DNA from: a virus
Lineage: Duplodnaviria > Caudoviricetes
DNA length: 57,659 nucleotides
Direction: 5' to 3' (one strand)
Virus record (IMG/VR): IMGVR_UViG_3300043443_000537
Coordinates: 1-57,659 of that record
Position numbers and translations under genes: made by a program. This document shows positions 13,767 to 28,108 of this stretch, in pieces; the stretch's first letter is position 1; every line of letters begins with the position of its first letter. Under the pieces are notes generated by a model. The model did no database searches and had not been told where the DNA came from. It saw only the letters and a list, made by a program, of their open reading frames with translations.

Positions 13767-15458
13767 ATGAACGCCCTCGTCACCCAACTCAAAGAAGCCG
13801 GACAGGACCACGAGTTCTACCCGACCACCGAAGAGATCGTCGCGGTCCTCGTCCGCGACATTAACGACCTGCGCGAGCGAGACGACATCCGTTATCGCCA
13901 CCGCCGCGGGATCGAGAGCGTCCTCGACATCGGCGCCGGTCACGGCAAGGTCTTGCGCGCCCTGCGCGACCGCGCGTCGTTCACCCAACTCTTCGCCATC
14001 GAGAAGTCGCCTATCCTGTGCGACCGTCTCGACAATGACATCTTCATCGTCGGGACCGAGTTCCACGAACAAAGCCTCGTCGCCAAGCAGGCCGACGTCA
14101 CGTTCTGCAACCCGCCCTACTCGGAGTTCGAGGAATGGGCGGCGAAAATCATCCGCGAGTCGGCGTCGTGGTTCGTTTACCTCGTCATCCCGGTGCGCTG
14201 GGCGTCGTCGATAGAGATCGCCAACGCGCTCGAGTTTCGTGACGCCAAGGCGGAGGTGATCGGCACGTTCAGTTTTCAGGACGCCGAGGACCGCGCGGCC
14301 CGTGCGAACGTCAACCTGATCCGCATTGCGCTGGCCAGAGAGACCGACGACGCGTTCGACCGGTTCTTCGACGCGCAATTCACCGACCTTCGCGCGAAGT
14401 GGGACGCCCACCAAGCCGCCAGCCGTGAAGGCGAGCCTGCGCGTGAAGGCGAGTCCCGCCGCCGCAACCCGAAGATGGACGCCCTTGTCGTCGGCGCCAA
14501 CTACCCGGACCGCCTCGTCGGCCTCTACAACGAGGAGCTTGAGCACATCCGCAAGAACTACGACATGGTGAAGGCCCTCGACGTCGACCTGCTCAAGGAG
14601 TTCGACGTCTCGCCGGTGCGCATCATGGGGTGTCTAAAGGCCAGGCTTGCCGGCCTGCGGAACGCCTACTGGCAGGAGCTATTCAGCCACATGAAGTCGG
14701 TGACGAACCGGCTCACCACGAAGAAGCGCCGCATGATGTTGGAGACGCTGAACCGAAGCGGTCACGTCGACTTCACCGTGGGGAATATCCACGCGGTCGT
14801 CATGTGGGTAATGAAGAACGCGAACAGCTACGTCAACGCGCAGCTCCTTGAGACCTTCGACGCGATGGTGGGTAAGGCGAACGTCCGCAACTACAAGTCC
14901 AATGAGCGGGTCTTCGTCTTCGACCGTTGGCGCTACAACCAAGAGAAGCCCACCCACATCGCTTTGGAATATCGCGTGGTGCTTGAGAACGTCGGCGGCC
15001 TGCGCGCGAAATACACGCGCGGTCACGAGCTCGTCGAGTCGGCGGCGGACTTCATCGGCGACCTCCTGACCGTCGCGCATTGCATGGGGTTTAACTGCGA
15101 CACCGGCGACGCGCGCTTGGCATGGCACGGCCGTCACGAGAGCTGGACGCCCGGCGAGCGCCAGGAGTTTTCGTGCCGCGTCGACGGCGACACCGAGATC
15201 CTCTTCGACGTCCGCGCGTTCCAGAACGGCAACCTGCACGTCAGGCTGAATCAGAAGTTCGCCCTCGCGCTCAACGTCGAGACCGGGCGCCTGCGCGGGT
15301 GGGTGAAGTCCGGCCACGAGGCCGCGGAAGAACTCGGCGACAAGCGCGCCGCCAAGTATTTCGGCGTCAACGTCCAACTAGGCGCCGGCAGCTTGCCGAT
15401 GCTCGGAGCGCCCGCCGCCGAGACCACCTCAACCGAACCCGAACTTTTTCCCGTATGA
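13767..15458 (+). CDS. SAM-dependent amino (adenine) DNA methyltransferase-like protein, DUF4942-type
   Basis: EFYPT, VLDIGAGHG, FCNPPY; C-terminal RAFQNGNLHV. Confidence 0.82.
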   Translation: MNALVTQLKEAGQDHEFYPTTEEIVAVLVRDINDLRERDDIRYRHRRGIESVLDIGAGHGKVLRALRDRASFTQLFAIEKSPILCDRLDNDIFIVGTEFHEQSLVAKQADVTFCNPPYSEFEEWAAKIIRESASWFVYLVIPVRWASSIEIANALEFRDAKAEVIGTFSFQDAEDRAARANVNLIRIALARETDDAFDRFFDAQFTDLRAKWDAHQAASREGEPAREGESRRRNPKMDALVVGANYPDRLVGLYNEELEHIRKNYDMVKALDVDLLKEFDVSPVRIMGCLKARLAGLRNAYWQELFSHMKSVTNRLTTKKRRMMLETLNRSGHVDFTVGNIHAVVMWVMKNANSYVNAQLLETFDAMVGKANVRNYKSNERVFVFDRWRYNQEKPTHIALEYRVVLENVGGLRAKYTRGHELVESAADFIGDLLTVAHCMGFNCDTGDARLAWHGRHESWTPGERQEFSCRVDGDTEILFDVRAFQNGNLHVRLNQKFALALNVETGRLRGWVKSGHEAAEELGDKRAAKYFGVNVQLGAGSLPMLGAPAAETTSTEPELFPV

Positions 15459-18011: not shown

Positions 18012-18259
18012 CGCCGCGCCGCCACCTCCCCCGCTTCGGTCACGCGCCTGCGCACGTGCAGGCCGTCGACCCGGAGCCCTACAACCCGAACGAGCGCGTC
18101 CGCCGTCGTGGCGCGCTCGCCTTCGGCTACGGCGACGCCATCCGGTTTCGCCGCACGCCTAGCATGCCGCGCCCGCGACAGACCGGGCCGGACTTTCCCC
18201 TCCTCGCTCTCGCATTTGTCCTTGCACTCCTCAGCGCGTTCTTACTCTCGCGCCTGTGA
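18008..18259 (+). CDS. Hypothetical protein with C-terminal transmembrane helix
   Basis: ATGA overlap; FPLLALAFVLALLSAFLLSRL. Confidence 0.6.
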   Translation: MTPRRHLPRFGHAPAHVQAVDPEPYNPNERVRRRGALAFGYGDAIRFRRTPSMPRPRQTGPDFPLLALAFVLALLSAFLLSRL

Positions 18260-18296
18260 ACCGCGCCGGGCGGACTCCCGGCAACCCTCCCTCGTT

Positions 18297-19310
18297 ATGA
18301 AACTAGCCTCAATCGAAGTCATCGCCGACGTGCGCCCGCATGGGAATGCCGACCGGCTCGAAATCGCCACCGTCCTCGGCTGGCAAACCGTCGTCCGCAA
18401 GGGCGAGTTCAAGACCGGCGACCGCTGCGTCTTCATCGTGATCGACACTATCCTGCCGCCGGCGCCGTGGTCCGCATTCCTCGCGCACCCCGCCGCGCCC
18501 GACCTGCCTATCCGGCTCAAGACCGCGAAGCTCCGCGGCGAGTTCTCGCAAGGCCTGGCGCTGCCGCTCACCGTCCTGCCGGAGCACATGCGCGACTGGC
18601 AGAACGGCGCCGATGTCGGCGGCGAGCTGGGCGTGAAGAAATACGAGAAGGAGATTCCCGCCGTCCTATCCGGCGAGGCGAAGAGCGCGTTCCCGACTCA
18701 CTTCGCGCCTCGCACCGACGAGGACAACGGCCTGAGTCATCCGAGCATCGTCGAGATGGTCCTGGCTGAGCGCGAGCTCGTCATCACCCTAAAACTCGAC
18801 GGCTCCTCCTGCACGGTCGTGTGGGAGAACGGCAAGGGCATCGTCGACGTCTGCTCGCGCAACCTGAGCCTGCGCGACGACGGGAAGAATGGATTCTGGC
18901 GCGCGGTCAAGAAGCTGAAGCTCGACCGGCTCAGCGGATACCTCGAGTGGGGGCCGCGCACGGTCCTGCAGGGCGAACTCATGGGGCCAGGCGTGCAGGG
19001 CAACCAACTCAAACTCACCGAGCCGACGCTGTTCCTGTTCCAAGTCCACAACGAGGCAACCGGCTGGCTGGCGCATTCCGGCGTCCGGCGCGTCGCGGAA
19101 CATATCGGCGCCGAGGTCGTGCCGCAGATTGAGGTGCCCATCGGCTGGACTAATCGCGACCTCGCTCAACTCCAATCCGTCGCCGACGCGCAGAAGCTCC
19201 CCGACGGCTCGCCCGCCGAGGGCATCGTGGTCCGGCCCGCTCGCGCCATCGCGTTCGGCAACGGCCGCCCCGCCGGCTTCAAGATCATCAATCGCAACTA
19301 CGGCGAATAA
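18297..19310 (+). CDS. ATP-dependent RNA ligase, Rnl2-like (DRB0094 type)
   Basis: N-terminal HGNADRLEIATVLGWQTVV; motif I KLDGSS, III QGELMGPGVQGN, IV EGIVV, V FKIIN; start ATG 18297. Confidence 0.92.
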   Translation: MKLASIEVIADVRPHGNADRLEIATVLGWQTVVRKGEFKTGDRCVFIVIDTILPPAPWSAFLAHPAAPDLPIRLKTAKLRGEFSQGLALPLTVLPEHMRDWQNGADVGGELGVKKYEKEIPAVLSGEAKSAFPTHFAPRTDEDNGLSHPSIVEMVLAERELVITLKLDGSSCTVVWENGKGIVDVCSRNLSLRDDGKNGFWRAVKKLKLDRLSGYLEWGPRTVLQGELMGPGVQGNQLKLTEPTLFLFQVHNEATGWLAHSGVRRVAEHIGAEVVPQIEVPIGWTNRDLAQLQSVADAQKLPDGSPAEGIVVRPARAIAFGNGRPAGFKIINRNYGE

Positions 19311-22209: not shown

Positions 22210-22490
22210 CTGATTTGCTCCCGATTGCTCCCGCTGGCGGACATCCTGCGGACAATTCAAGGACGTGCGGACAATGCCGCGCGCCTAACCTGTTGAACCC
22301 TCAACCCTTAACTCGCCTTTGCACCCCTTGACGAATATACTAGCAGTGTCTATCGTTTACCCCTGCGCTCGGTTGCGGTCCGTTGCGCTCGTTGTCGAAT
22401 CAGCGACTTGCGAGCGACGGCCTTTGATACTGAGTGCCGCCGGATGCTCTGAGTTGCGTTCCGGTGCGGACAACCTGCGGACAACGGGGG
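22210..22490. mobile_element. Putative attP region
   Basis: TGCGGACAA repeats at 22247, 22266, 22465, 22476; IHF-like sites at 22286-22298 and 22398-22410; directly upstream of integrase. Confidence 0.7.
22328..22356 (+). promoter_or_regulatory. Sigma70-like promoter upstream of integrase
   Basis: TTGACG-N17-TATCGT. Confidence 0.55.
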
Positions 22491-22494
22491 AACG

Positions 22495-23694
22495 ATGAAC
22501 CTCACCAAACGCACCATCGAAGGCCTGACCTGCAAGCCGGGCCGGGTCACCGAAACCTTCTACGACGAGCGCGTCTCCGGCTTCGGCGTCCGCGTGATCG
22601 CCAAGTCGGGGCGCAAGACCTTCGTGCTCCGCTACCGCACCCGCGCGGGCAGCGAACGATACTACACGCTCGGCCCTTGCGACGTGCTCTCGCCCGACGC
22701 CGCGCGCGCGGAGGCCATGCGCCTGCTCGCCGAGGTCGCGCTTGGCAAAGACCCGGCGGCCGAACTCGAGACCCTGCGCGCCGAGCCGACGGTCGCGACC
22801 CTGGCGACGGAATGGCTGGCGTGGGTGAAGGCCCACAAGAAGCCGAACACCCTCAAGAACTACAAGGCCTGCTACAAGTGCCACGTCGCCCCGGCGTTCG
22901 GGACGTTGCGCGTCTCGGAGGTCACGGAAACCGCGGTCGCCCGCGTGCACGCCAAGATGCACGAGCACAAATATCAGGCCAACCGCGTCGTCGTCATCCT
23001 GACCGCGATGTGGCGGTGGGGGATGCGCTACGGCTACATGCCGAAGGGCCCGGTGCCGTTCCGCGAGATCGAGGCCTACCGTTTCAAGCCGCGCCGGCGG
23101 CGGATGTCGGTCGACGAGCTCGTCGCGACGTGGCGTTCGCTCGACACCTTCACGGGGACCGAACTGGTGAACTTCGCCCCGCTCGTGAAGTTGCTCCTGC
23201 TGACCGGCGCCCGCCTCTCGGAATGGCGCGACGCCCTGTGGTCGTGGGTTGACCTTGACGACGCCCTCCTCCGCCTGCCCGATTCCAAGACCGGCGCGAA
23301 GGACATCCAGCTCCCACCCGAGGCCGTCGAGATCCTGCGCGCGCTGCCGCGGACATCCGTCTACGTGCTGCCAGGCGTGAAGGGCGGCCCGATGCGCGGC
23401 GTCTGGCGGGCGTGGGTGGCGTTTCGCGAATCCATCGGGGCGCCGGACCTGCGCATGCACGACCTGCGCCGCACGGTCGGCAGCATGGCGCTTGAGGCCG
23501 GGCTGAACGTGCGCGAGGTCGCTGACCTGCTCGGCCATGCGAACACCCGCAGCACGGAGATTTACCTCTCCGCCGTGAAGGAGCGCGAGGCCGGCAACGC
23601 GCGGAAGGTCGCGGGCGTGATCGTGCAGCTCGCGACCGGCGGGGCGCCCGTGGTCGAGTCCATTACAAAGCGCCGCGCCGTTTTCAGAAAATAG
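22495..23694 (+). CDS. int: Tyrosine integrase with N-terminal arm-binding domain
   Basis: FYDERVSGFGVRV...GRKTFVLRYR; TGARLSE; DSKTG; HDLRRT; LLGH...TEIY. Confidence 0.96.
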   Translation: MNLTKRTIEGLTCKPGRVTETFYDERVSGFGVRVIAKSGRKTFVLRYRTRAGSERYYTLGPCDVLSPDAARAEAMRLLAEVALGKDPAAELETLRAEPTVATLATEWLAWVKAHKKPNTLKNYKACYKCHVAPAFGTLRVSEVTETAVARVHAKMHEHKYQANRVVVILTAMWRWGMRYGYMPKGPVPFREIEAYRFKPRRRRMSVDELVATWRSLDTFTGTELVNFAPLVKLLLLTGARLSEWRDALWSWVDLDDALLRLPDSKTGAKDIQLPPEAVEILRALPRTSVYVLPGVKGGPMRGVWRAWVAFRESIGAPDLRMHDLRRTVGSMALEAGLNVREVADLLGHANTRSTEIYLSAVKEREAGNARKVAGVIVQLATGGAPVVESITKRRAVFRK

Positions 23695-23697
23695 GGC

Positions 23698-23711
23698 TTG
23701 CGTCGGCGCAA
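23698..23711 (+). promoter_or_regulatory. TTGCG-N4-CGCAA operator/-35 element
   Basis: TTGCGTCGGCGCAA; TAGGTT at 23720-23725; 38 nt before ATG 23736. Confidence 0.8.
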
Positions 23712-23735
23712 GCGGGTCGTAGGTTCGTCGGCGTT

Positions 23736-24095
23736 ATGAGCACCCACGCCTCAATCATCTACAAGACCGCCGACGGCTACGCCGGCATTTACTGCCACTT
23801 CGACGGCTACCCGTCGCACACCGGCCGCGTCCTCAACCGCCACTATTCCCAGCCCGCGAAGGTCGCCGAGTTGATCGCTCTTGGCGACATCTCCGGCTTT
23901 GCCCGCGACGGTCTCCCGGACGCCTACCGTGATCGCGGCGAGGATTGCCCGGCCTCTACGGGCGCGACGCTCAAAGAGGTCGAGGCGGCCATCGGCGGCA
24001 GCTTCACCTACGTCTTCGACGGCGCGGCGTGGACCTGCAACGGCAAGCCGCTCGCCGAGGCCATTGACAAGGACGACGACGGAGGCGACGAGTAA
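23736..24095 (+). CDS. Conserved phage hypothetical protein
   Basis: IYCHFDGYPSHTGRVL...LIALGDIS. Confidence 0.8.
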   Translation: MSTHASIIYKTADGYAGIYCHFDGYPSHTGRVLNRHYSQPAKVAELIALGDISGFARDGLPDAYRDRGEDCPASTGATLKEVEAAIGGSFTYVFDGAAWTCNGKPLAEAIDKDDDGGDE

Positions 24096-24145
24096 GCCTT
24101 GACCCGGGCGCCGCACCGGGCAACGTGCGGCAGGTTCTTTCTCAC

Positions 24146-24221
24146 ATGGCGGAAGCTCAATTGGTCGAGCAGCGGTCTCCAAAATCGCCGGTCGCAGGTT
24201 CGATGCCTGCCCGCCATGCCA
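24146..24221 (+). tRNA. tRNA-Trp (CCA)
   Basis: 76-nt cloverleaf; acceptor ATGGCGG/CCGCCAT, anticodon loop CTCCAAA, T loop TTCGATG, encoded CCA. Confidence 0.92.
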
Positions 24222-24225
24222 CTTT

Positions 24226-24300
24226 TGCAGGATAGTTCAGTGGCAGAACGCCGGTCTCATAAACCGGAAGTCGTGGGTTCGATTCCCGCTCCTGCATCCA
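24226..24300 (+). tRNA. tRNA with CAT anticodon (Met or Ile2)
   Basis: 75-nt cloverleaf; acceptor TGCAGGA/TCCTGCA, loop CTCATAA, TTCGATT, encoded CCA. Confidence 0.92.
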
Positions 24301-24304
24301 CTTC

Positions 24305-24422
24305 CCTCGTCGCGAGGAAGATTGCGATCCGAAAGGCTGCGTATGCCAACCCGGTGACCTCGCGAGCCTAGTTGCATGGGCGGATTGCATCCATGCCGCC
24401 GGTCGTGAAACTACCGGCACCA
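24305..24422 (+). ncRNA. Unknown structured RNA A ending in hairpin+ACCA
   Basis: TCGCGAGG/CCTCGCGA, CC-GAAA-GG, GCATGG/CCATGC, GCCGGT/ACCGGC then ACCA. Confidence 0.55.
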
Positions 24423-24426
24423 ATTT

Positions 24427-24519
24427 CTCCAGCTCACCGCTGGATACGGGCGAGATGTGGCGCGGTCCGCATACCCTTACGAAAGAGACCGCCGTCCGCC
24501 TGCACGTCAGCAGGCACCA
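24427..24519 (+). ncRNA. Unknown structured RNA B ending in hairpin+ACCA
   Basis: TCCAGC/GCTGGA, GGGCG/CGTCC, GCGGTC/GACCGC, GCCTGC/GCAGGC then ACCA. Confidence 0.55.
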
Positions 24520-24539
24520 CTTTCGTTCTTTCTCACTTT

Positions 24540-24903
24540 GGGGCTACACCGGTTTCGACTCTCGTCGAGGCCCTTAGCTGCATGCAGGCGGTGCCGGCTC
24601 CGCCTTGAACCAACCGGCAAACCACAAACGCCAACTCGTTTGATATGGCTCCCTCGGTTGAGCAGGCTGACGCGATCCTCGCGGCCACCGGCTACGTCGA
24701 GACCGAGCTCGCCACGGCTTAATCGACCGTGCCGTCGCCCGCCTGACTCCGCTACGGCGACGCGACGACGACAGCGGAATCTCAATGGCGCCCGTGCCAG
24801 CTCGCGGGATGGTGGAGGGTGACTCCGGTCACCCCTAATTAAGCATGTCGACGCGACGGGCGCAGGCGAGAACACAGGGGTTCGACTCCCCTTAGCTCCA
24901 CCA
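24540..24903 (+). ncRNA. ssrA: tmRNA
   Basis: 5' GGGGCTA...GGTTTCGAC; 3' GGGGTTCGACTCCCC-TAGCTCC-ACCA; G3:U70 alanine identity pair; internal tag ORF 24630-24722. Confidence 0.93.
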
Positions 24904-24905
24904 TT

Positions 24906-25033
24906 TTCCCCGTGCCTGCGCAGGCCGAGGCGTCGGAGTCAGTGGCGCATCTGGTGCGTCGCGAGGCTGGCCCTTGGCGCGAGCGTGCGCTACTTCAGGC
25001 TCAGCCTCGTGCTGGGACGCTCGCGGCGGGGAA
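24906..25033 (+). ncRNA. Unknown structured RNA C with predicted loop-loop pseudoknot
   Basis: Closing stem 24906-12/25027-33; stems 24924-30/24972-78 and 24979-86/25017-24; 9-bp loop-loop pair 24961-69/25002-10. Confidence 0.6.
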
Positions 25034-25040
25034 TTCAATT

Positions 25041-25155
25041 TGAGCGGCGGCGTGGAAAGCGCAGGCATGCGCGATCCGCGGTGGCGTCCTGACGACCGGC
25101 ACGGGTTGATCGCCGACGGAAGCGTTCAGCCGGTTCAAATCCGCCCGCTCAATCA
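25041..25155 (+). ncRNA. Enlarged tRNA-like RNA D (115 nt)
   Basis: Acceptor TGAGCGG/CCGCTCA, D-loop-like GTGGAAA, T loop GGTTCAAATCC, ends ATCA; no canonical anticodon arm. Confidence 0.6.
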
Positions 25156-25424
25156 TTTCCCCGATACCACCCCCACGGCTACGGCCCAAGGGTGCGCCAT
25201 TCGAAAAGTCCGGCGAGGTGCGCGCGCACTAGACCGGCTCCGGACAGGGGTTTAACTCCGGCGCTTATCGCCTCGGCGTAACAATCGCAGGCGACGTGCT
25301 CAACGATAGAACGCTAGCGGCCTGGCCCACCGCGATAAACCAACGGGCCACATCTTCCGACCTGCACGGTCTTCATAACCGCCGATCCCGCCGGCGTTGC
25401 AGCGAGCGGGCGAATTTCCCCGTC

Positions 25425-25646
25425 ATGCACATCCTCCTCCAATCCTTCGCCGCCGGGCTCGCCTTCGCGCTCGGCGCTTTCGTCGGGATCGGCGTCGCCG
25501 GTCTACTCTTCCGCTCGCGTGACAACGGCGCGATGGACCGACTTCTCGACACCAACAAACGCATCGAGGACCGGCTCAATGCGCAGGTGTCATGCCTGAC
25601 TCGCATTGCGGCCGCCGCCGAGCGGTCGAAGGAGGCGAAGCCGTGA
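25425..25646 (+). CDS. Small membrane protein
   Basis: N-terminal TM FAAGLAFALGAFVGIGVAGLLF plus coiled coil. Confidence 0.7.
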   Translation: MHILLQSFAAGLAFALGAFVGIGVAGLLFRSRDNGAMDRLLDTNKRIEDRLNAQVSCLTRIAAAAERSKEAKP

Positions 25647-25696
25647 GCGACCACCTGCGGTTCCACCGCTAAACAATTTTCCGCCGCGTAAATCGC

Positions 25697-26266
25697 ATGT
25701 CCTCAACAACCATCAACCGTAATCAACTCAAATCGTTCAACGCGTTTGCTTCTGCTTCTGCTTCGAATGCTCTTTGTGCGGACTCCACGGTGCCTAAAAA
25801 AAATCGTTCTTTGAGGCGCGACACCGCGACGACGGGGGAATCGTCCTCACCCCTCGCGGCGGATTCAATCTCAACTCGGGTGCGCATGATCTGCGAGCGG
25901 GCCGAGCCTGCGTGCGGGACGATCATGGCTCACGTAAACGGATGGGTCTGGTGCATGGTCTGCCCCGAGACTCACAAAATCTCTCCAACCTACTCGCCGA
26001 TGCGCTATGCCTTGACAGAAAAGGCGCGGCGAGAGGCCAAGATAAAAGCAGGCTTTTGTGCCGAGTGTGGCCGCCGACGAGACACAATCTCCTCTCGCTT
26101 GTGCGCCAGGCATCTCGCCATGAAGCGTGTCCGTAAGCGCCGATATGACGAGCGTCGTAACTTGGCCGTCAAGGACTCACTTTATTCTGGTTCCAGCCGA
26201 GGTATGTCCGGCGGGGCCGTTATCACCTATGACCTCCGTGACGAGACTGCCGGCATCTTGCTCTGA
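25697..26266 (+). CDS. Hypothetical Cys-rich protein (start uncertain)
   Basis: CMVC, CAEC...LCARH; lower GC than neighbours. Confidence 0.45.
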   Translation: MSSTTINRNQLKSFNAFASASASNALCADSTVPKKNRSLRRDTATTGESSSPLAADSISTRVRMICERAEPACGTIMAHVNGWVWCMVCPETHKISPTYSPMRYALTEKARREAKIKAGFCAECGRRRDTISSRLCARHLAMKRVRKRRYDERRNLAVKDSLYSGSSRGMSGGAVITYDLRDETAGILL

Positions 26267-26796: not shown

Positions 26797-27092
26797 GGCG
26801 CAGGGTTGAGCGAGTCGATTACGTCCTGCGTGCAGGCCGCGTAGCCTGCCGCGTCCACCATGTTGTCCCGCTTCGGTCGATGCGCCTGGCGCGCGACCTT
26901 CACGAGAATCATGAGCGGGCCGATGTCCTCCGCGCGCACGGTCACGGTGCGGCCGTTGGTCCGGCTAAGGTAGGCGGAGAACATCGCGGCCTGCGTGGTG
27001 AAGTCGTCGACGGGCGGCCCGTAGGCGGCGTGCCGGTCGCCGTAGACGAGCGACTTAGCCTCGGTGAGGATGTCGGGAGGGGTGGCGCTCAT
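26793..27092 (-). CDS. DUF6378-like protein
   Basis: ILTEAKSLVYGDRHAAYGPP...KVAR...RDNMVDAAGY; start ATG 27092. Confidence 0.75.
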   Translation of the reverse strand: MSATPPDILTEAKSLVYGDRHAAYGPPVDDFTTQAAMFSAYLSRTNGRTVTVRAEDIGPLMILVKVARQAHRPKRDNMVDAAGYAACTQDVIDSLNPAP

Positions 27093-28108
27093 GAGTTCAG
27101 GAGTTTGCCGTTGTGGATGCGGAAGTTTGTGACGTTGAAGAGGCCGCCAGTGCTGACCTCGATCTCTGCGAAGCCGTGATTCCATCCGTTGTTCGGCTCG
27201 TAGAGGGGCCGCAGCTCGCACAGGCAGCCGGTCGACCAACAGGTCACGATGTCGCGGCCGAGGTTGGTCTCTGTGTGCTCGGAGGTTTTGTGTGAGTGGC
27301 TGACCATACACGAGACCTTCGCGCGCATGAAGGCGCCGCGGGCGGGGTTGACCGGCGCGGAGATGCCGCGGGGGAGCTCGTGGCCGTGTAGGACCGGGAG
27401 CTTCCCAACCATGACCTCGCGCTTCTCGTAGACGTGCTCGATCCCGAACTTCTTGAGATTGAACAGCGCGCCGAGTCCGTTGATCGTGACGTCGTAGAGT
27501 TCCGGCGCGCGCTCCATGATGTAGTGCTGCAGGCGCTCGTCGTGGTTGCCTTCCTTGAAGACGATGCGGGCGTCGGGGAATAGCTCGCGCAGCTTGCTCA
27601 GGAACGCGAGCGCGGTCTTGCGCTCCTGCTTGAACGACCGAGCCTCCGGGTTCTTGCAGAAGCGCGAGAGCGTGTGGAAGTCCGCGAGGTCGCCGTTGAT
27701 GAGGATGCCGTCGACCTTGCGGCGCTGGCCGGTCTGCAACGCCAGCGTCAGGGCGCCGATGTTGTGATACGGGAGGTGGATGTCGGGCAGCACGAGGACG
27801 CGCTCGCAGCCGTCCATGATGAACGGTGTGTGCTCGCGCTCAAACGAGGCCGGGAGATTGAGCGGGTTGATGGGATTGAACTTGGAGGCTGGCGTGGTTA
27901 TGGCGGCGAGTCCGCGATCCTCTCGCTTTGCCTTCCCATTTGCGCCGCGGCGATACCGGATGGCGCAGCGCGCCGCATCCACGTCCTTCCACACCCGAGG
28001 ATGCTTCTTTGCCATGAGCCGCGCGAGCGTGAGCGACGGCATATCGGGGTGCTTCTTGACGTATTCGTCGGCGAGCTCGCTCGCGTGCGGGTTCTTGTGG
28101 TTGGGCAT
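27089..28108 (-). CDS. Calcineurin-like metallophosphoesterase
   Basis: DIH, NGDLAD, GNHD, HGH and SHSH motifs. Confidence 0.9.
   Translation of the reverse strand: MPNHKNPHASELADEYVKKHPDMPSLTLARLMAKKHPRVWKDVDAARCAIRYRRGANGKAKREDRGLAAITTPASKFNPINPLNLPASFEREHTPFIMDGCERVLVLPDIHLPYHNIGALTLALQTGQRRKVDGILINGDLADFHTLSRFCKNPEARSFKQERKTALAFLSKLRELFPDARIVFKEGNHDERLQHYIMERAPELYDVTINGLGALFNLKKFGIEHVYEKREVMVGKLPVLHGHELPRGISAPVNPARGAFMRAKVSCMVSHSHKTSEHTETNLGRDIVTCWSTGCLCELRPLYEPNNGWNHGFAEIEVSTGGLFNVTNFRIHNGKLLNS

What the first reader, a model, noticed from the sequence alone, without database searches (positions are those of the whole stretch)
24099..25420. A ~1.3-kb polycistronic ncRNA operon: 2 tRNAs, tmRNA and at least four unexplained structured RNAs
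Seen: after a TTGACC-N16-CAACGT promoter-like site there is no credible ORF. Instead there is a chain of self-contained folded units, each ending in CCA or TCA followed by a short pyrimidine tract, exactly like the true tRNAs. Inference: one transcript is processed by tRNA maturation enzymes into canonical and novel RNAs that manipulate translation or decoy host nucleases. This is the best candidate for an undescribed system here.
Basis: partly seen in the sequence, partly recalled or inferred. Interest (0 to 1): 0.88.

Follow-up and report, generated by a model that had tools for sequence, protein, structure and literature searches.

The report
Phage tRNA–tmRNA array with unknown RNAs
A gene-free 1.3-kb stretch beside the integrase of an uncultured temperate phage holds two real tRNAs, a real tmRNA and some folded RNA-like units; two of these are also kept by a related phage that has no tRNAs, and what they do is unknown.

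Summary
The window is a complete 57.7-kb phage.

**Confirmed**
- tRNA-Trp, tRNA-Met and a one-piece tmRNA are real.
- 24200-25400 shows no coding signal.
- Encoded CCA followed by a pyrimidine tract occurs 5 times within 700 nt, against 9 on the whole + strand: three known RNAs plus units S1 and S2.

**Not supported**
- The promoter. The −10 matches 2 of 6 bases and the scan found 0 sites.
- What is conserved there is a hairpin followed by GTTCTTTCTCAC.

**The unexplained units**
- None of the five matches Rfam.
- The one alignable relative, G001, has no tRNA, tmRNA or integrase but keeps S3 and S4.
- In S3, core helices are 41/44 identical and the rest 41/89. There is one compensatory pair, plus strand-specific G·U pairs.
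- S1 and S2 are not kept at ≥80% identity in the closest relative, although tRNA-Met and tmRNA are.
- S5 is mostly an insertion with no fold signal (z −0.58).

**Reading**
This looks like a modular RNA-cassette array cut by tRNA-processing enzymes. S3 and S4 are probably stable RNAs of unknown role. Expression is untested.

The scan noted similar kinds of array on other DNA, but no look-alike of this sequence.

The parts
24110..24131 (+). T1: 7-bp G+C hairpin (GCCGCAC-N8-GTGCGGC) directly after the stop codon of the 119-aa gene.
   Evidence: Terminator-like site. Conserved in G001 with a double change at the loop-closing pair (C-G to G-C). All pairs are Watson-Crick, so an RNA hairpin and a palindromic DNA operator cannot be told apart.
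24134..24145 (+). Linker copy 1, GTTCTTTCTCAC, ending at the 5' end of tRNA-Trp.
   Evidence: TTCTTTCTCAC occurs twice in the window, both here (24135, 24526), and once in G001 at the homologous place.
24146..24221 (+). tRNA-Trp (anticodon CCA), with A1-U72, G73 and an encoded CCA.
   Evidence: ARAGORN; Rfam RF00005 55.2 bits. In the X4 relative it is replaced by 133 other letters.
24226..24300 (+). tRNA-Met (anticodon CAT), with an encoded CCA. It does not look like an initiator: 1-72 is paired and the anticodon stem has no run of three G-C pairs.
   Evidence: ARAGORN; Rfam 69.7 bits. Kept in the X4 relative with 9 differences over 24219-24301. The isotype reading comes from the alignment plus textbook identity rules, which I recalled.
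24301..24423 (+). S1: a 123-nt unit. It has a 5' hairpin at 24301-24320, inner hairpins, and a 3' hairpin at 24398-24418 followed by ACCA (24419-24422) and ATTTCTCC.
   Evidence: Sequence; motif; fold z -0.97. No Rfam match. Not retained at >=80% identity in the X4 relative and absent from G001.
24424..24539 (+). S2: three hairpins in series, the last at 24498-24515, followed by ACCA (24516-24519), CTTTC and linker copy 2 (24525-24536).
   Evidence: Sequence; fold z -2.48, 1 of 200 shuffles as stable. In the X4 relative only the part from 24516 onwards (ACCA and linker) is kept.
24540..24903 (+). One-piece tmRNA: acceptor stem with G3:U70, A73, CCA. The tag frame is 24630-24722 and encodes ANSFDMAPSVEQADAILAATGYVETELATA.
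   Evidence: ARAGORN; RF00023 68.9 bits, model positions 1-374. In the X4 and X5 contigs the only indels inside the tag frame total 3 nt (a 1+2 deletion and a CCG insertion). 24615-24700 shows no listed difference in the X4 relative, although 18 difference rows were not shown.
24904..25037 (+). S3: a stem-closed RNA with three hairpins. P1 pairs 24906-24912 with 25027-25033. P2 is 24915-24925. A long variable middle hairpin follows. P4 pairs 24978-24986 with 25017-25025.
   Evidence: Fold z -2.33 on + and -1.83 on -. The G001 copy has the same architecture, z -2.40. Core helices are 41/44 identical, the rest 41/89 with 47 gapped columns. There is one compensatory pair in P1 (U-A to C-G), one G-C to G-U in P2, and a U·G in P1 in both phages. 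Blocks 24905-24928 and 25015-25043 also lie on another X4 contig whose printed loose ends are A+T-rich.
25040..25155 (+). S4: a stem-closed unit. TTGAGCGG (25040-25047) pairs with CCGCTCAA (25145-25152), followed by TCA and TTTCCCCG. It contains a T-loop-like GGTTCAAATCC at 25132-25142.
   Evidence: Fold z -1.68. The G001 copy is closed by the same stem, z -1.96. Both stem strands and the first 5' hairpin strand are conserved, while the interior cannot be aligned. T-loop motif. No tRNA call. The T-loop is not present in G001.
25156..25350 (+). S5 body: about 195 nt absent from G001. It is flanked by similar pyrimidine linkers, CATTTCCCCGAT... and CATCTTCCGACC...
   Evidence: Alignment; fold z -0.58; no Rfam match. 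A weak T-arm look-alike at 25244-25259 is best taken as chance.
25351..25424 (+). Conserved 3' end block, running up to the ATG of the 73-aa ORF.
   Evidence: 83% identical over 59 columns to G001. 3 differences over 25354-25425 in the X4 relative. The genes behind it differ in all three genomes: the ORF73 tblastn against G001 gave a best E of 1.5, and the X4 contig has a loose end after 25425.
22235..22490 (-). Probable attP, outside the finding: TTGTCCGCA direct repeats on both sides of about 190 bp, just upstream of the integrase gene.
   Evidence: Five exact copies in the window, four of them at 22247-22484 on the - strand; sequence. That these are arm-type integrase sites is my inference.
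22495..23694 (+). Tyrosine integrase with an arm-DNA-binding domain.
   Evidence: PF13356, PF00589 and PF14659. Relatives L125 and L141, at 30-34% identity, sit next to a tmRNA 3' fragment.

Best explanation
The locus is a one-strand, ORF-free RNA-gene array in the accessory region just behind the integrase of a temperate phage. It has two layers.

Layer 1 is an older non-coding module: hairpin T1 with a pyrimidine linker, the stem-closed multi-hairpin RNAs S3 and S4, and a conserved 3' end block. A related phage keeps this module without any tRNA, tmRNA or integrase.

Layer 2 is a set of cassettes inserted at the pyrimidine linkers of that module: tRNA-Trp, tRNA-Met, S1 and S2 as one block flanked by two copies of GTTCTTTCTCAC; the tmRNA; and the S5 body.

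I infer that the array is transcribed in the direction of int as one or a few precursors. Host tRNA-maturation enzymes would then cut it at the linkers: RNase P at the base of the closing stems, and RNase E with 3' exonucleases in the U/C-rich tracts behind CCA. This would release working tRNAs and a working tmRNA that support phage translation or replace host RNAs. S3 and S4 would be released as stable structured RNAs of unknown role, in the way T4 releases RNAC and RNAD from its tRNA cluster. S1 and S2 are more likely fast-evolving spacer RNAs with tRNA-3'-end-like minihelices (hairpin-ACCA-UUUC) than conserved genes.

Shown: the three known RNAs, the absence of coding signal, the motif clustering, and the conservation pattern. 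Inferred: transcription, processing and every function.
For: - Known RNAs.
- tmRNA under selection: G3:U70 with ACCA (read); indels inside the tag frame total 3 nt in two other samples.
- No coding signal from 24200 to 25399.
- Five of the nine + strand CCA-pyrimidine motifs lie at unit ends within 700 nt.
- G001 is a true relative: portal 74-76% identical and 26 blastn HSPs summing to 36,880 nt.
- G001 has 0 tRNA or tmRNA genes and no integrase, yet keeps T1 with its linker, S3, the S4 stem and the end block in the same order.
- Conservation in S3 lies on the helices: 41/44 identical against 41/89 elsewhere. The loops differ in sequence and length, but both copies fold alike, z -2.33 and -2.40.
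- A U·G pair in P1 and a G·U pair in P2 work only on the + strand, and the + strand folds better than the - strand, -71.5 against -58.2 kcal/mol.
- Direct repeats of linkers flank the tRNA-S2 block and the S5 body.
- In the X4 relative, units are swapped between retained linkers.
Against: - Only two full sequences could be aligned. Reliable covariation amounts to one pair in S3 P1 and one in T1, and the T1 change would equally fit a palindromic operator.
- Fold z-scores are between -1.7 and -2.5 at best, with S1 at -0.97 and S5 at -0.58. These come from seven or more tests without correction.
- No promoter was found. T1 and the S2 3' hairpin each look like an intrinsic terminator placed directly before tRNA-Trp and before the tmRNA, which fits a single transcript poorly.
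- S1 and S2 are not retained at >=80% in the closest relative.
- In the fold of the whole 24904-25416, S3 does not stay closed by P1.
- The helix-versus-loop contrast is partly circular, because the consensus fold leans on the conserved columns.
- A covariance model of S3 found no further copy in 98 held sources.
Confidence: 0.45

Rival explanations
1. Apart from the three known RNAs, the stretch is spacer DNA without a function of its own. Under this reading the conserved blocks are mosaic joints, meaning short sequences at which related phages recombine. The hairpins are what any 65% G+C sequence forms.
For: Weak z-scores for S1 and S5. S1 and S2 are replaced in the closest relative. The S5 body is absent from G001. 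No further S3 copy was found, and two DNA-pattern scans of metagenome contigs gave 0 hits.
Against: The conserved blocks are exactly the two strands of helices. They keep pairing although the distance between them changes: 30 nt against 53 nt between the two strands of P4, and 135 nt against about 180 nt for the whole of S3. There is a compensatory change in P1. The module survives in a phage whose flanking genes are all different, and blocks of it lie on a third contig of different composition.
Confidence: 0.2
2. S3, S4 and the end block form a cis-acting leader that controls the downstream genes (the 73-aa membrane-type ORF and beyond). Control would work through alternative pairings of the repeated UUUCCCCG and CGGGGAA segments.
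For: TTTCCCCG occurs three times on the + strand, at 24905, 25156 and 25415. The last copy lies directly before the ATG at 25425, where no Shine-Dalgarno sequence is visible. The end block is the best conserved part in both relatives.
Against: The genes behind the block differ in all three genomes. The G001 end block lacks the last TTTCCCCG. No riboswitch or leader family matches.
Confidence: 0.15
3. One reading: the extra units are trans-acting tRNA mimics that decoy host tRNA-targeting nucleases or otherwise tamper with translation.
For: tRNA-style ends on S1, S2 and S4. A T-loop motif in S4. The phage also carries an RNA ligase at 18108-19310 and a metallophosphoesterase at 27089-28108, a gene set that could serve RNA repair.
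Against: None of the units scores as a tRNA. None has the G3:U70 alanine mark of a tmRNA-like minihelix (read). The S4 T-loop is not kept in G001, and S1 and S2 are not kept in the closest relative.
Confidence: 0.1
4. The region is the phage attachment site (attP), and the tRNA-like pieces are copies of the 3' end of the host target gene.
For: It is the largest non-coding stretch near int. Two relatives of this integrase sit beside tmRNA 3' fragments.
Against: In those relatives, and in the two loci with a tRNA, the RNA gene lies upstream of int on the opposite strand. In the window that position (22235-22490) holds four exact TTGTCCGCA direct repeats around a core of about 190 bp. G001 keeps the module without any integrase. 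G·U pairs make the helices strand-specific.
Confidence: 0.07

Closest known systems
Phage T4 tRNA gene cluster with the stable RNAs RNAC and RNAD (species 1 and 2)
   Same: Extra structured RNAs of unknown function sit in the same cluster as the phage tRNAs. [quoted passage not shown] That they are co-transcribed and matured with the tRNAs is my recollection.
   Different: There is no sequence relation: blastn of the whole stretch against 50,697 phage records hit only the tRNA part. The host phage here is temperate, the array sits behind int, and it includes a tmRNA.
Phage-encoded tmRNA genes (for example the OM43 phage Melnitz and mycobacteriophages)
   Same: A complete tmRNA carried by a phage. 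PMC9004378 (passages) counted tmRNA genes in 402 of 18,146 phage genomes (2.3%).
   Different: This is a one-piece form in a 57.7-kb integrase-bearing phage, with an unusually long 30-residue tag ending ...ELATA. It is flanked by unknown structured units. The phage has no SmpB gene.
tRNA-dependent lysogeny of actinobacteriophages (Guerrero-Bustamante and Hatfull 2024, PMC10865867; abstract read)
   Same: A temperate phage with a tyrosine integrase carries full-length copies of RNA genes of the kind such integrases target.
   Different: The attB site is unknown. No core is shared between the probable attP and the phage's own tRNAs or tmRNA beyond three 9-mers. This would explain the tRNAs and tmRNA, not S1-S5.
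RNase P-processed phage regulatory RNAs (P1/P7 C4 antisense RNA, P4 CI RNA). The names and their processing are recalled, not taken from a call.
   Same: Small stem-closed phage RNAs with tRNA-like ends, cut out of a longer transcript upstream of the genes they control.
   Different: No Rfam family, whichever it is, reached even E = 0.1 on the unknown parts. No complementary target sites were looked for systematically.
CDS-less mini-tmRNA of mycobacteriophage DS6A (passage of PMC11915505)
   Same: In G001 a 73-nt stem-closed unit ending ...CCAGACC-A-TCCA sits exactly where the window has its tmRNA.
   Different: That unit has U3-A70 rather than G3:U70, has no T-loop, and gets no Rfam or ARAGORN call. 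It is therefore not a tmRNA-like domain by the defining marks.

Membership tests
tRNA (Rfam RF00005) | Cloverleaf scoring above the family's gathering score | tested here: met
   24146-24218 scores 55.2 bits and 24226-24297 scores 69.7 bits, against a gathering score of 29. ARAGORN gives Trp(CCA) and Met(CAT).
tRNA (Rfam RF00005), applied to S1, S2, S4 and S5 | Cloverleaf scoring above gathering, or any ARAGORN call at default settings | tested here: not met
   No tRNA match even at E <= 10 on the short stretches. ARAGORN at default settings gives none. Only with thresholds lowered to 70-80% and long introns allowed do 9-15 extra calls appear, on both strands, and I take these as noise.
tmRNA (Rfam RF00023) | Full-length match above gathering score | tested here: met
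   68.9 bits against 47, model positions 1-374 of 374; also called by ARAGORN.
tmRNA (Rfam RF00023) | Alanine identity (G3:U70), A73 and CCA | tested here: met
   Read from the alignment: 5' GGGGCUA pairs with UAGCUCC, followed by ACCA.
tmRNA (Rfam RF00023) | Tag reading frame kept open in relatives | tested here: met
   The frame is 24630-24722. The X4 contig lacks 1+2 nt at 24701 and 24703. The X5 contig has CCG inserted behind 24702. Single-base indels appear only after the stop codon, at 24723 and 24726.
tmRNA-like minihelix or CDS-less mini-tmRNA, applied to S1, S2, S4 and the G001 73-nt unit | G3:U70 in the stem that precedes NCCA | tested here: not met
   The third pairs are C-G (S1, S2), A-U or G-C (S4, depending on register) and U-A (G001 unit), read.
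Intrinsic terminator, applied to T1 | G+C hairpin followed at once by a T-rich tract | tested here: inconclusive
   T1 fits the scan's pattern (7 pairs, tail AGGTTCTTTC). However, 4 such sites were found against 2.3 expected, the tract is interrupted by C, and a tRNA starts 14 nt later.
Sigma-70 promoter, applied to 24099-24126 | Two hexamers each matching at least 4 of 6 at a spacing of 16-18 | tested here: not met
   0 sites in 23500-26000. CAACGT matches 2 of 6. The -35 hexamer is not conserved in G001.
Phage attP of an arm-binding tyrosine integrase | Arm-type direct repeats on both sides of a core, next to int | tested here: not met
   There are none in 24099-25424. Four of the five exact TTGTCCGCA copies lie at 22247-22484, upstream of int.
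Any described RNA family (Rfam 15, 4227 models) | A match near the gathering score on S1-S5 | tested here: not met
   The best scores on the unknown parts are 8-17 bits against gathering scores of 38-95. The same holds for the G001 module.
T4-type tRNA-cluster stable RNAs (RNAC/RNAD) | Excised as discrete stable RNAs from the tRNA precursor | not testable with these tools
   No listed run holding the stretch is on record as RNA.

The most novel reading that the evidence does not exclude
T1, the linkers, S3, S4 and the end block together form a dedicated RNA-cassette platform. In this reading it is a conserved structured scaffold whose pyrimidine linkers serve both as processing sites and as the joints at which whole RNA genes (tRNAs, a tmRNA, tRNA-like units) are inserted, duplicated and swapped between phages. 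That would make it work like an integron for non-coding RNA genes. S3 and S4 would be a new family of tRNA-processing-dependent phage RNAs. A second bold reading is not excluded: the phage integrates into and disrupts a host ssrA or tRNA gene and survives by carrying its own copy, which would be 'tmRNA-dependent lysogeny'.
Probability: 0.15. Interest if true: 0.75.

Novelty: new variant of a known kind. Interest (0 to 1): 0.45.

Why it matters
Phage tRNA clusters have long been known to carry extra stable RNAs, and nobody has explained what those RNAs do. Here the extra RNAs S3 and S4 can be separated from the tRNAs, because a sister phage keeps them with no tRNA, tmRNA or integrase at all. 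They are therefore not mere tRNA debris or att-site remnants. If they are processed RNAs, they define a new family. They would also give a simple system for asking what such RNAs do and how RNA genes are shuffled between phages at short linkers. In addition, a full tmRNA with a conserved, unusually long tag in a small temperate phage is a handle on why phages carry ribosome-rescue RNAs.

Tried and rejected
**Homologue hunting that gave little or nothing**
- blastn of the stretch against GenBank phages matched only the tRNA part: 650 records, none covering >=80%.
- Scans of IMG/VR with single proteins:
  - The 119-aa neighbour gave 47 distant loci, 2 with a tRNA nearby and 0 with a tmRNA.
  - The 189-aa neighbour gave none.
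  - The integrase gave none.
- The integrase against genome contigs gave none.
- An integrase-family alignment against IMG/VR gave 65 loci, 2 with a tRNA and 0 with a tmRNA.
- A portal alignment against genome contigs gave 20 loci, the best 48% identical, so there is no close prophage and no host call.
- DNA patterns:
  - The tmRNA-tag 20-mer gave 0 hits in viral contigs and 0 in metagenome contigs.
  - The S3/S4 junction pattern gave 0 hits in metagenome contigs.
  - The linker 17-mer gave 4 viral hits. One is G001; the other three are 32-39% G+C and unrelated.
- The pattern was badly designed. G001 has one base fewer at the NN, so that scan was wasted.
- A covariance model of S3 matched only its two training sequences among 98 sources.

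**Host inference**
- The tmRNA 3' end with up to 2 mismatches occurs in 36 of 401 genomes sampled from the phylum around G006, and in 51 of 301 sampled from the phylum around G002. No listed place is an exact match, so this does not discriminate.
- One genome (G389) is flagged as unpublished.
- The five genomes behind the portal hits showed only generic tRNA-Trp and tmRNA-end similarity.

**Expression**
- No RNA holder is listed for the stretch.

**Considered and rejected**
- Decayed tRNAs for S1 and S2: the hairpin is followed directly by ACCA, with no acceptor strand.
- Permuted tmRNA for S5: the short similarities to the tmRNA are not colinear, and no permuted-tmRNA model matches.
- Coding region. 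There is also a 1-nt indel inside the best conserved block.
- attC-like sites: no such motifs were seen.
- The earlier-scan lead on 'integrase-downstream RNA arrays of Mica-like phages' could not be tested. No relation showed up in the integrase or portal searches.
- Supplementary tables of PMC9004378 and PMC10865867 were not seen. They may list phage tmRNAs or att sites relevant here.
Full report
**What the window is.**
The window is a whole IMG/VR virus record of 57,659 bp, rated 100% complete, with an exact 111-bp terminal repeat. It encodes a lambda-type portal, a protease-capsid fusion and a tail fibre. It also encodes a tyrosine integrase with an arm-binding domain at 22495-23694, so it is a temperate tailed phage.

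No named phage is close. The best portal match among 50,697 GenBank phage records is about 42% identical, and the best integrase match is 33%. The host is unknown.

**Checking the observation.**
ARAGORN and Rfam agree on three RNA genes:
- tRNA-Trp(CCA) at 24146-24221;
- tRNA-Met(CAT) at 24226-24300;
- a one-piece tmRNA at 24540-24903.

The tmRNA has the G3:U70 pair, A73 and CCA (read). Contigs of relatives in two other samples carry indels inside its 30-codon tag frame that total 3 nt, while single-base indels start only after the stop codon. It is therefore under selection as a tmRNA. The phage has no SmpB gene.

The rest of 24099-25424 carries no coding signal. The spread of G+C between codon phases is 0.01-0.13 there, against 0.36-0.49 in the genes upstream and 0.27 in the 73-aa ORF downstream.

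CCA[ACT]TT[CT][CT] occurs 9 times on the + strand of the whole phage, and five of these are the 3' ends of tRNA-Trp, tRNA-Met, S1, S2 and the tmRNA. In S1 and S2 the ACCA follows a 6-bp G+C hairpin.

The promoter is not supported. Its -10 hexamer matches 2 of 6 positions and the scan finds no promoter-like site. What is conserved at that spot in a relative is a hairpin, not the -35 hexamer.

**The unknown units in the window alone.**
I call them:
- S1 (24301-24423);
- S2 (24424-24539);
- S3 (24904-25037);
- S4 (25040-25155);
- S5 (25156-25424).

None matches any Rfam family, even at E = 10 on short stretches. None is a tRNA by ARAGORN at default settings.

Fold z-scores against shuffles are modest:

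| Unit | z-score |
|---|---|
| S1 | -0.97 |
| S2 | -2.48 |
| S3 | -2.33 |
| S4 | -1.68 |
| S5 | -0.58 |

On the window alone, the claim of 'four structured RNAs' would therefore be weak.

**Relatives.**
Two sources remained.

*Source (a): G001.* A portal search found IMG/VR record G001, 62,007 bp. Its portal is 74-76% identical, and 26 blastn HSPs sum to 36,880 nt at roughly 66-79% identity. G001 has no tRNA or tmRNA gene and no tyrosine integrase. Between quite different flanking genes it nevertheless holds a non-coding stretch of about 520 nt with the same order of blocks:
1. the T1 hairpin plus GTTCTTTCTCACTTTGG;
2. a 73-nt stem-closed unit ending ...CCAGACC-A-TCCA, exactly where the window has its tmRNA;
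3. S3;
4. S4;
5. the end block.

*Source (b): other sequencing runs.* Laying contigs of four runs on the stretch showed a closer relative in run X4. Its 2,414-nt contig behaves as follows:
- It keeps 24098-24144 with 1 difference and one inserted base.
- It replaces tRNA-Trp by 133 other letters.
- It keeps tRNA-Met with 9 differences.
- It replaces 24301-24516 (S1 and S2) by 242 unlike letters.
- It keeps 24516-24903 (linker plus tmRNA) with 21 differences.
- It replaces 24904-25353 by about 318 letters.
- It keeps 25354-25425 with 3 differences.

Another X4 contig joins 24905-24928 to 25015-25043, and the loose ends printed for it are A+T-rich.

**What the comparison says.**
In S3 the conserved columns are the helices. 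P1 (UUCCCCG/CGGGGAA), P2 and P4 (CGCGAGCGU/ACGCUCGCG) are 41/44 identical with no gaps. The rest is 41/89 identical with 47 gapped columns.

Further points on S3:
- The two copies differ in length (135 nt against about 180 nt), yet both fold into the same stem-closed, three-hairpin shape, with z -2.33 and -2.40.
- P1 carries one compensatory change (U-A to C-G).
- P2 carries a G-C to G-U change, and P1 has a U·G pair in both phages.
- These wobble pairs exist only on the + strand, which also folds better than the - strand, -71.5 against -58.2 kcal/mol.

S4 is closed in both phages by the same 8-bp stem, TTGAGCGG/CCGCTCAA, followed by (T)TCA and a pyrimidine tract. Its interior cannot be aligned. 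The T-loop-like GGTTCAAATCC of the window's S4 is not present in G001.

T1 has a double change at its loop-closing pair. Because all its pairs are Watson-Crick, this fits a palindromic DNA site as well as an RNA hairpin.

Against independent function:
- S1 and S2 are not kept at >=80% in the closest relative, although their neighbours are.
- The S5 body (25156-25350) is missing from G001 and is flanked by two similar linkers.
- The covariation evidence rests on two sequences.
- The helix-versus-loop contrast is partly circular.

**Modularity.**
GTTCTTTCTCAC occurs twice in the window, before tRNA-Trp and before the tmRNA, and once in G001 before its 73-nt unit. TTTCCCCG follows the tmRNA and S4 and also precedes the ATG at 25425.

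The block from tRNA-Trp to S2 and the S5 body each sit between two copies of a linker. In the X4 relative, units are exchanged while linkers stay.

The simplest picture is an old non-coding module (T1, S3, S4 and the end block) into which RNA cassettes have been inserted at short pyrimidine linkers.

**Is it the attachment site?**
Probably not, for four reasons:
- In relatives of this integrase family, the RNA gene or fragment lies upstream of int on the other strand. This holds for tmRNA 3' ends in L125 and L141, and for a whole tRNA in the locus where one lies upstream of the match (L103).
- In the window that place (22235-22490) holds four of the phage's five exact TTGTCCGCA copies. They are arranged as direct repeats around about 190 bp, which looks like arm-type sites. 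That is my inference.
- G001 keeps the module without an integrase.
- No core longer than 9 nt is shared between the probable attP and the RNA array.

**Mechanism: shown and inferred.**
Shown:
- three genuine translation RNAs on one strand;
- an ORF-free context;
- tRNA-style 3' ends on S1, S2 and, as TCA, on S4;
- helix-centred conservation of S3 and S4 in a tRNA-less relative;
- linker repeats at cassette borders.

Inferred:
- The array is transcribed with int and cut at the linkers by RNase P and by RNase E with 3' exonucleases, as bacterial multi-tRNA precursors are (textbook knowledge, recalled).
- The tRNAs and tmRNA serve translation during infection or lysogeny.
- S3 and S4 are released as stable RNAs whose role is unknown.
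- S1 and S2 are fast-evolving spacers with tRNA-end-like minihelices.

Two things sit badly with a single transcript. No promoter could be found. T1 and the last hairpin of S2 also look like terminators placed directly before tRNA-Trp and before the tmRNA. Expression could not be tested, because no RNA run is listed.

**Comparison with what is known.**
- The nearest analogue in kind is the T4 tRNA cluster with RNAC and RNAD, still called 'RNAs of yet unknown functions' (passage of PMC9697503). There is no sequence relation.
- Phage tmRNAs are known but uncommon: 402 of 18,146 phage genomes (passage of PMC9004378).
- tRNA-dependent lysogeny (abstract of PMC10865867) offers a possible reason for full-length RNA genes beside an integrase, but attB is unknown here.
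- A CDS-less mini-tmRNA is reported for phage DS6A (passage of PMC11915505). The G001 73-nt unit lacks the defining G3:U70 pair, so it is not one.
- Earlier notes of this scan describe similar kinds of RNA cassette arrays in other phages. They share no sequence with this one, and I did not test them.

**Verdict.**
The three known RNAs are ordinary in kind, although a complete tmRNA in a small temperate phage is uncommon. Of the 'four or more' unknown RNAs, S3 and S4 are credible new structured RNAs on thin comparative evidence. S1 and S2 are doubtful as genes. S5 is mostly an unstructured insertion plus a conserved end block.

I rate the locus as a new variant of a known kind, with interest 0.45.

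Noticed in passing
window 22235-22490 (- strand): Four exact TTGTCCGCA direct repeats, two on each side of about 190 bp, lie just upstream of the integrase gene. A fifth degenerate copy sits beside them. This is probably the real attP with arm-type sites.
   Followed up: partly
window 18108-19310 (+) and 27089-28108 (-): An RNA ligase (PF09414 with the PHA02142 OB fold) and a metallophosphoesterase are present in the same phage as the tRNAs and tmRNA. Together they could be an RNA-repair set against tRNA-cutting host defences.
   Followed up: no
window 24630-24722: The tmRNA tag is unusually long at 30 residues. It contains an internal ...AILAA and ends ...ELATA rather than the usual ...LAA. 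Whether this changes the fate of tagged proteins is open.
   Followed up: partly
L060 1148-1225 (- strand) = G001: A 73-nt stem-closed unit (8-bp closing stem, one long hairpin, tail A-TCCA) occupies the exact slot of the tmRNA in the relative. It has no Rfam or ARAGORN call; fold z is -2.09.
   Followed up: partly
L125 74-111 and L141 3762-3790: Two IMG/VR contigs with integrases 30-34% identical to this one carry a tmRNA 3'-end fragment about 200 nt upstream of int on the opposite strand. This is a classic ssrA att arrangement.
   Followed up: partly
window 23736-24095 (+): The 119-aa protein just before the array belongs to PHROG 1987, of unknown function. It has distant relatives in 47 viral contigs, some from records of over 200 kb, and is rarely found next to tRNAs (2 of 47).
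   Followed up: partly
window 13767-15458 (+): A 563-aa protein with a DUF4942 domain and a weak methyltransferase match, probably a DNA methyltransferase.
   Followed up: no
window 25425-25646 (+): A 73-aa ORF with an N-terminal hydrophobic helix, no visible Shine-Dalgarno sequence and no family match. Its start abuts the last TTTCCCCG linker.
   Followed up: no
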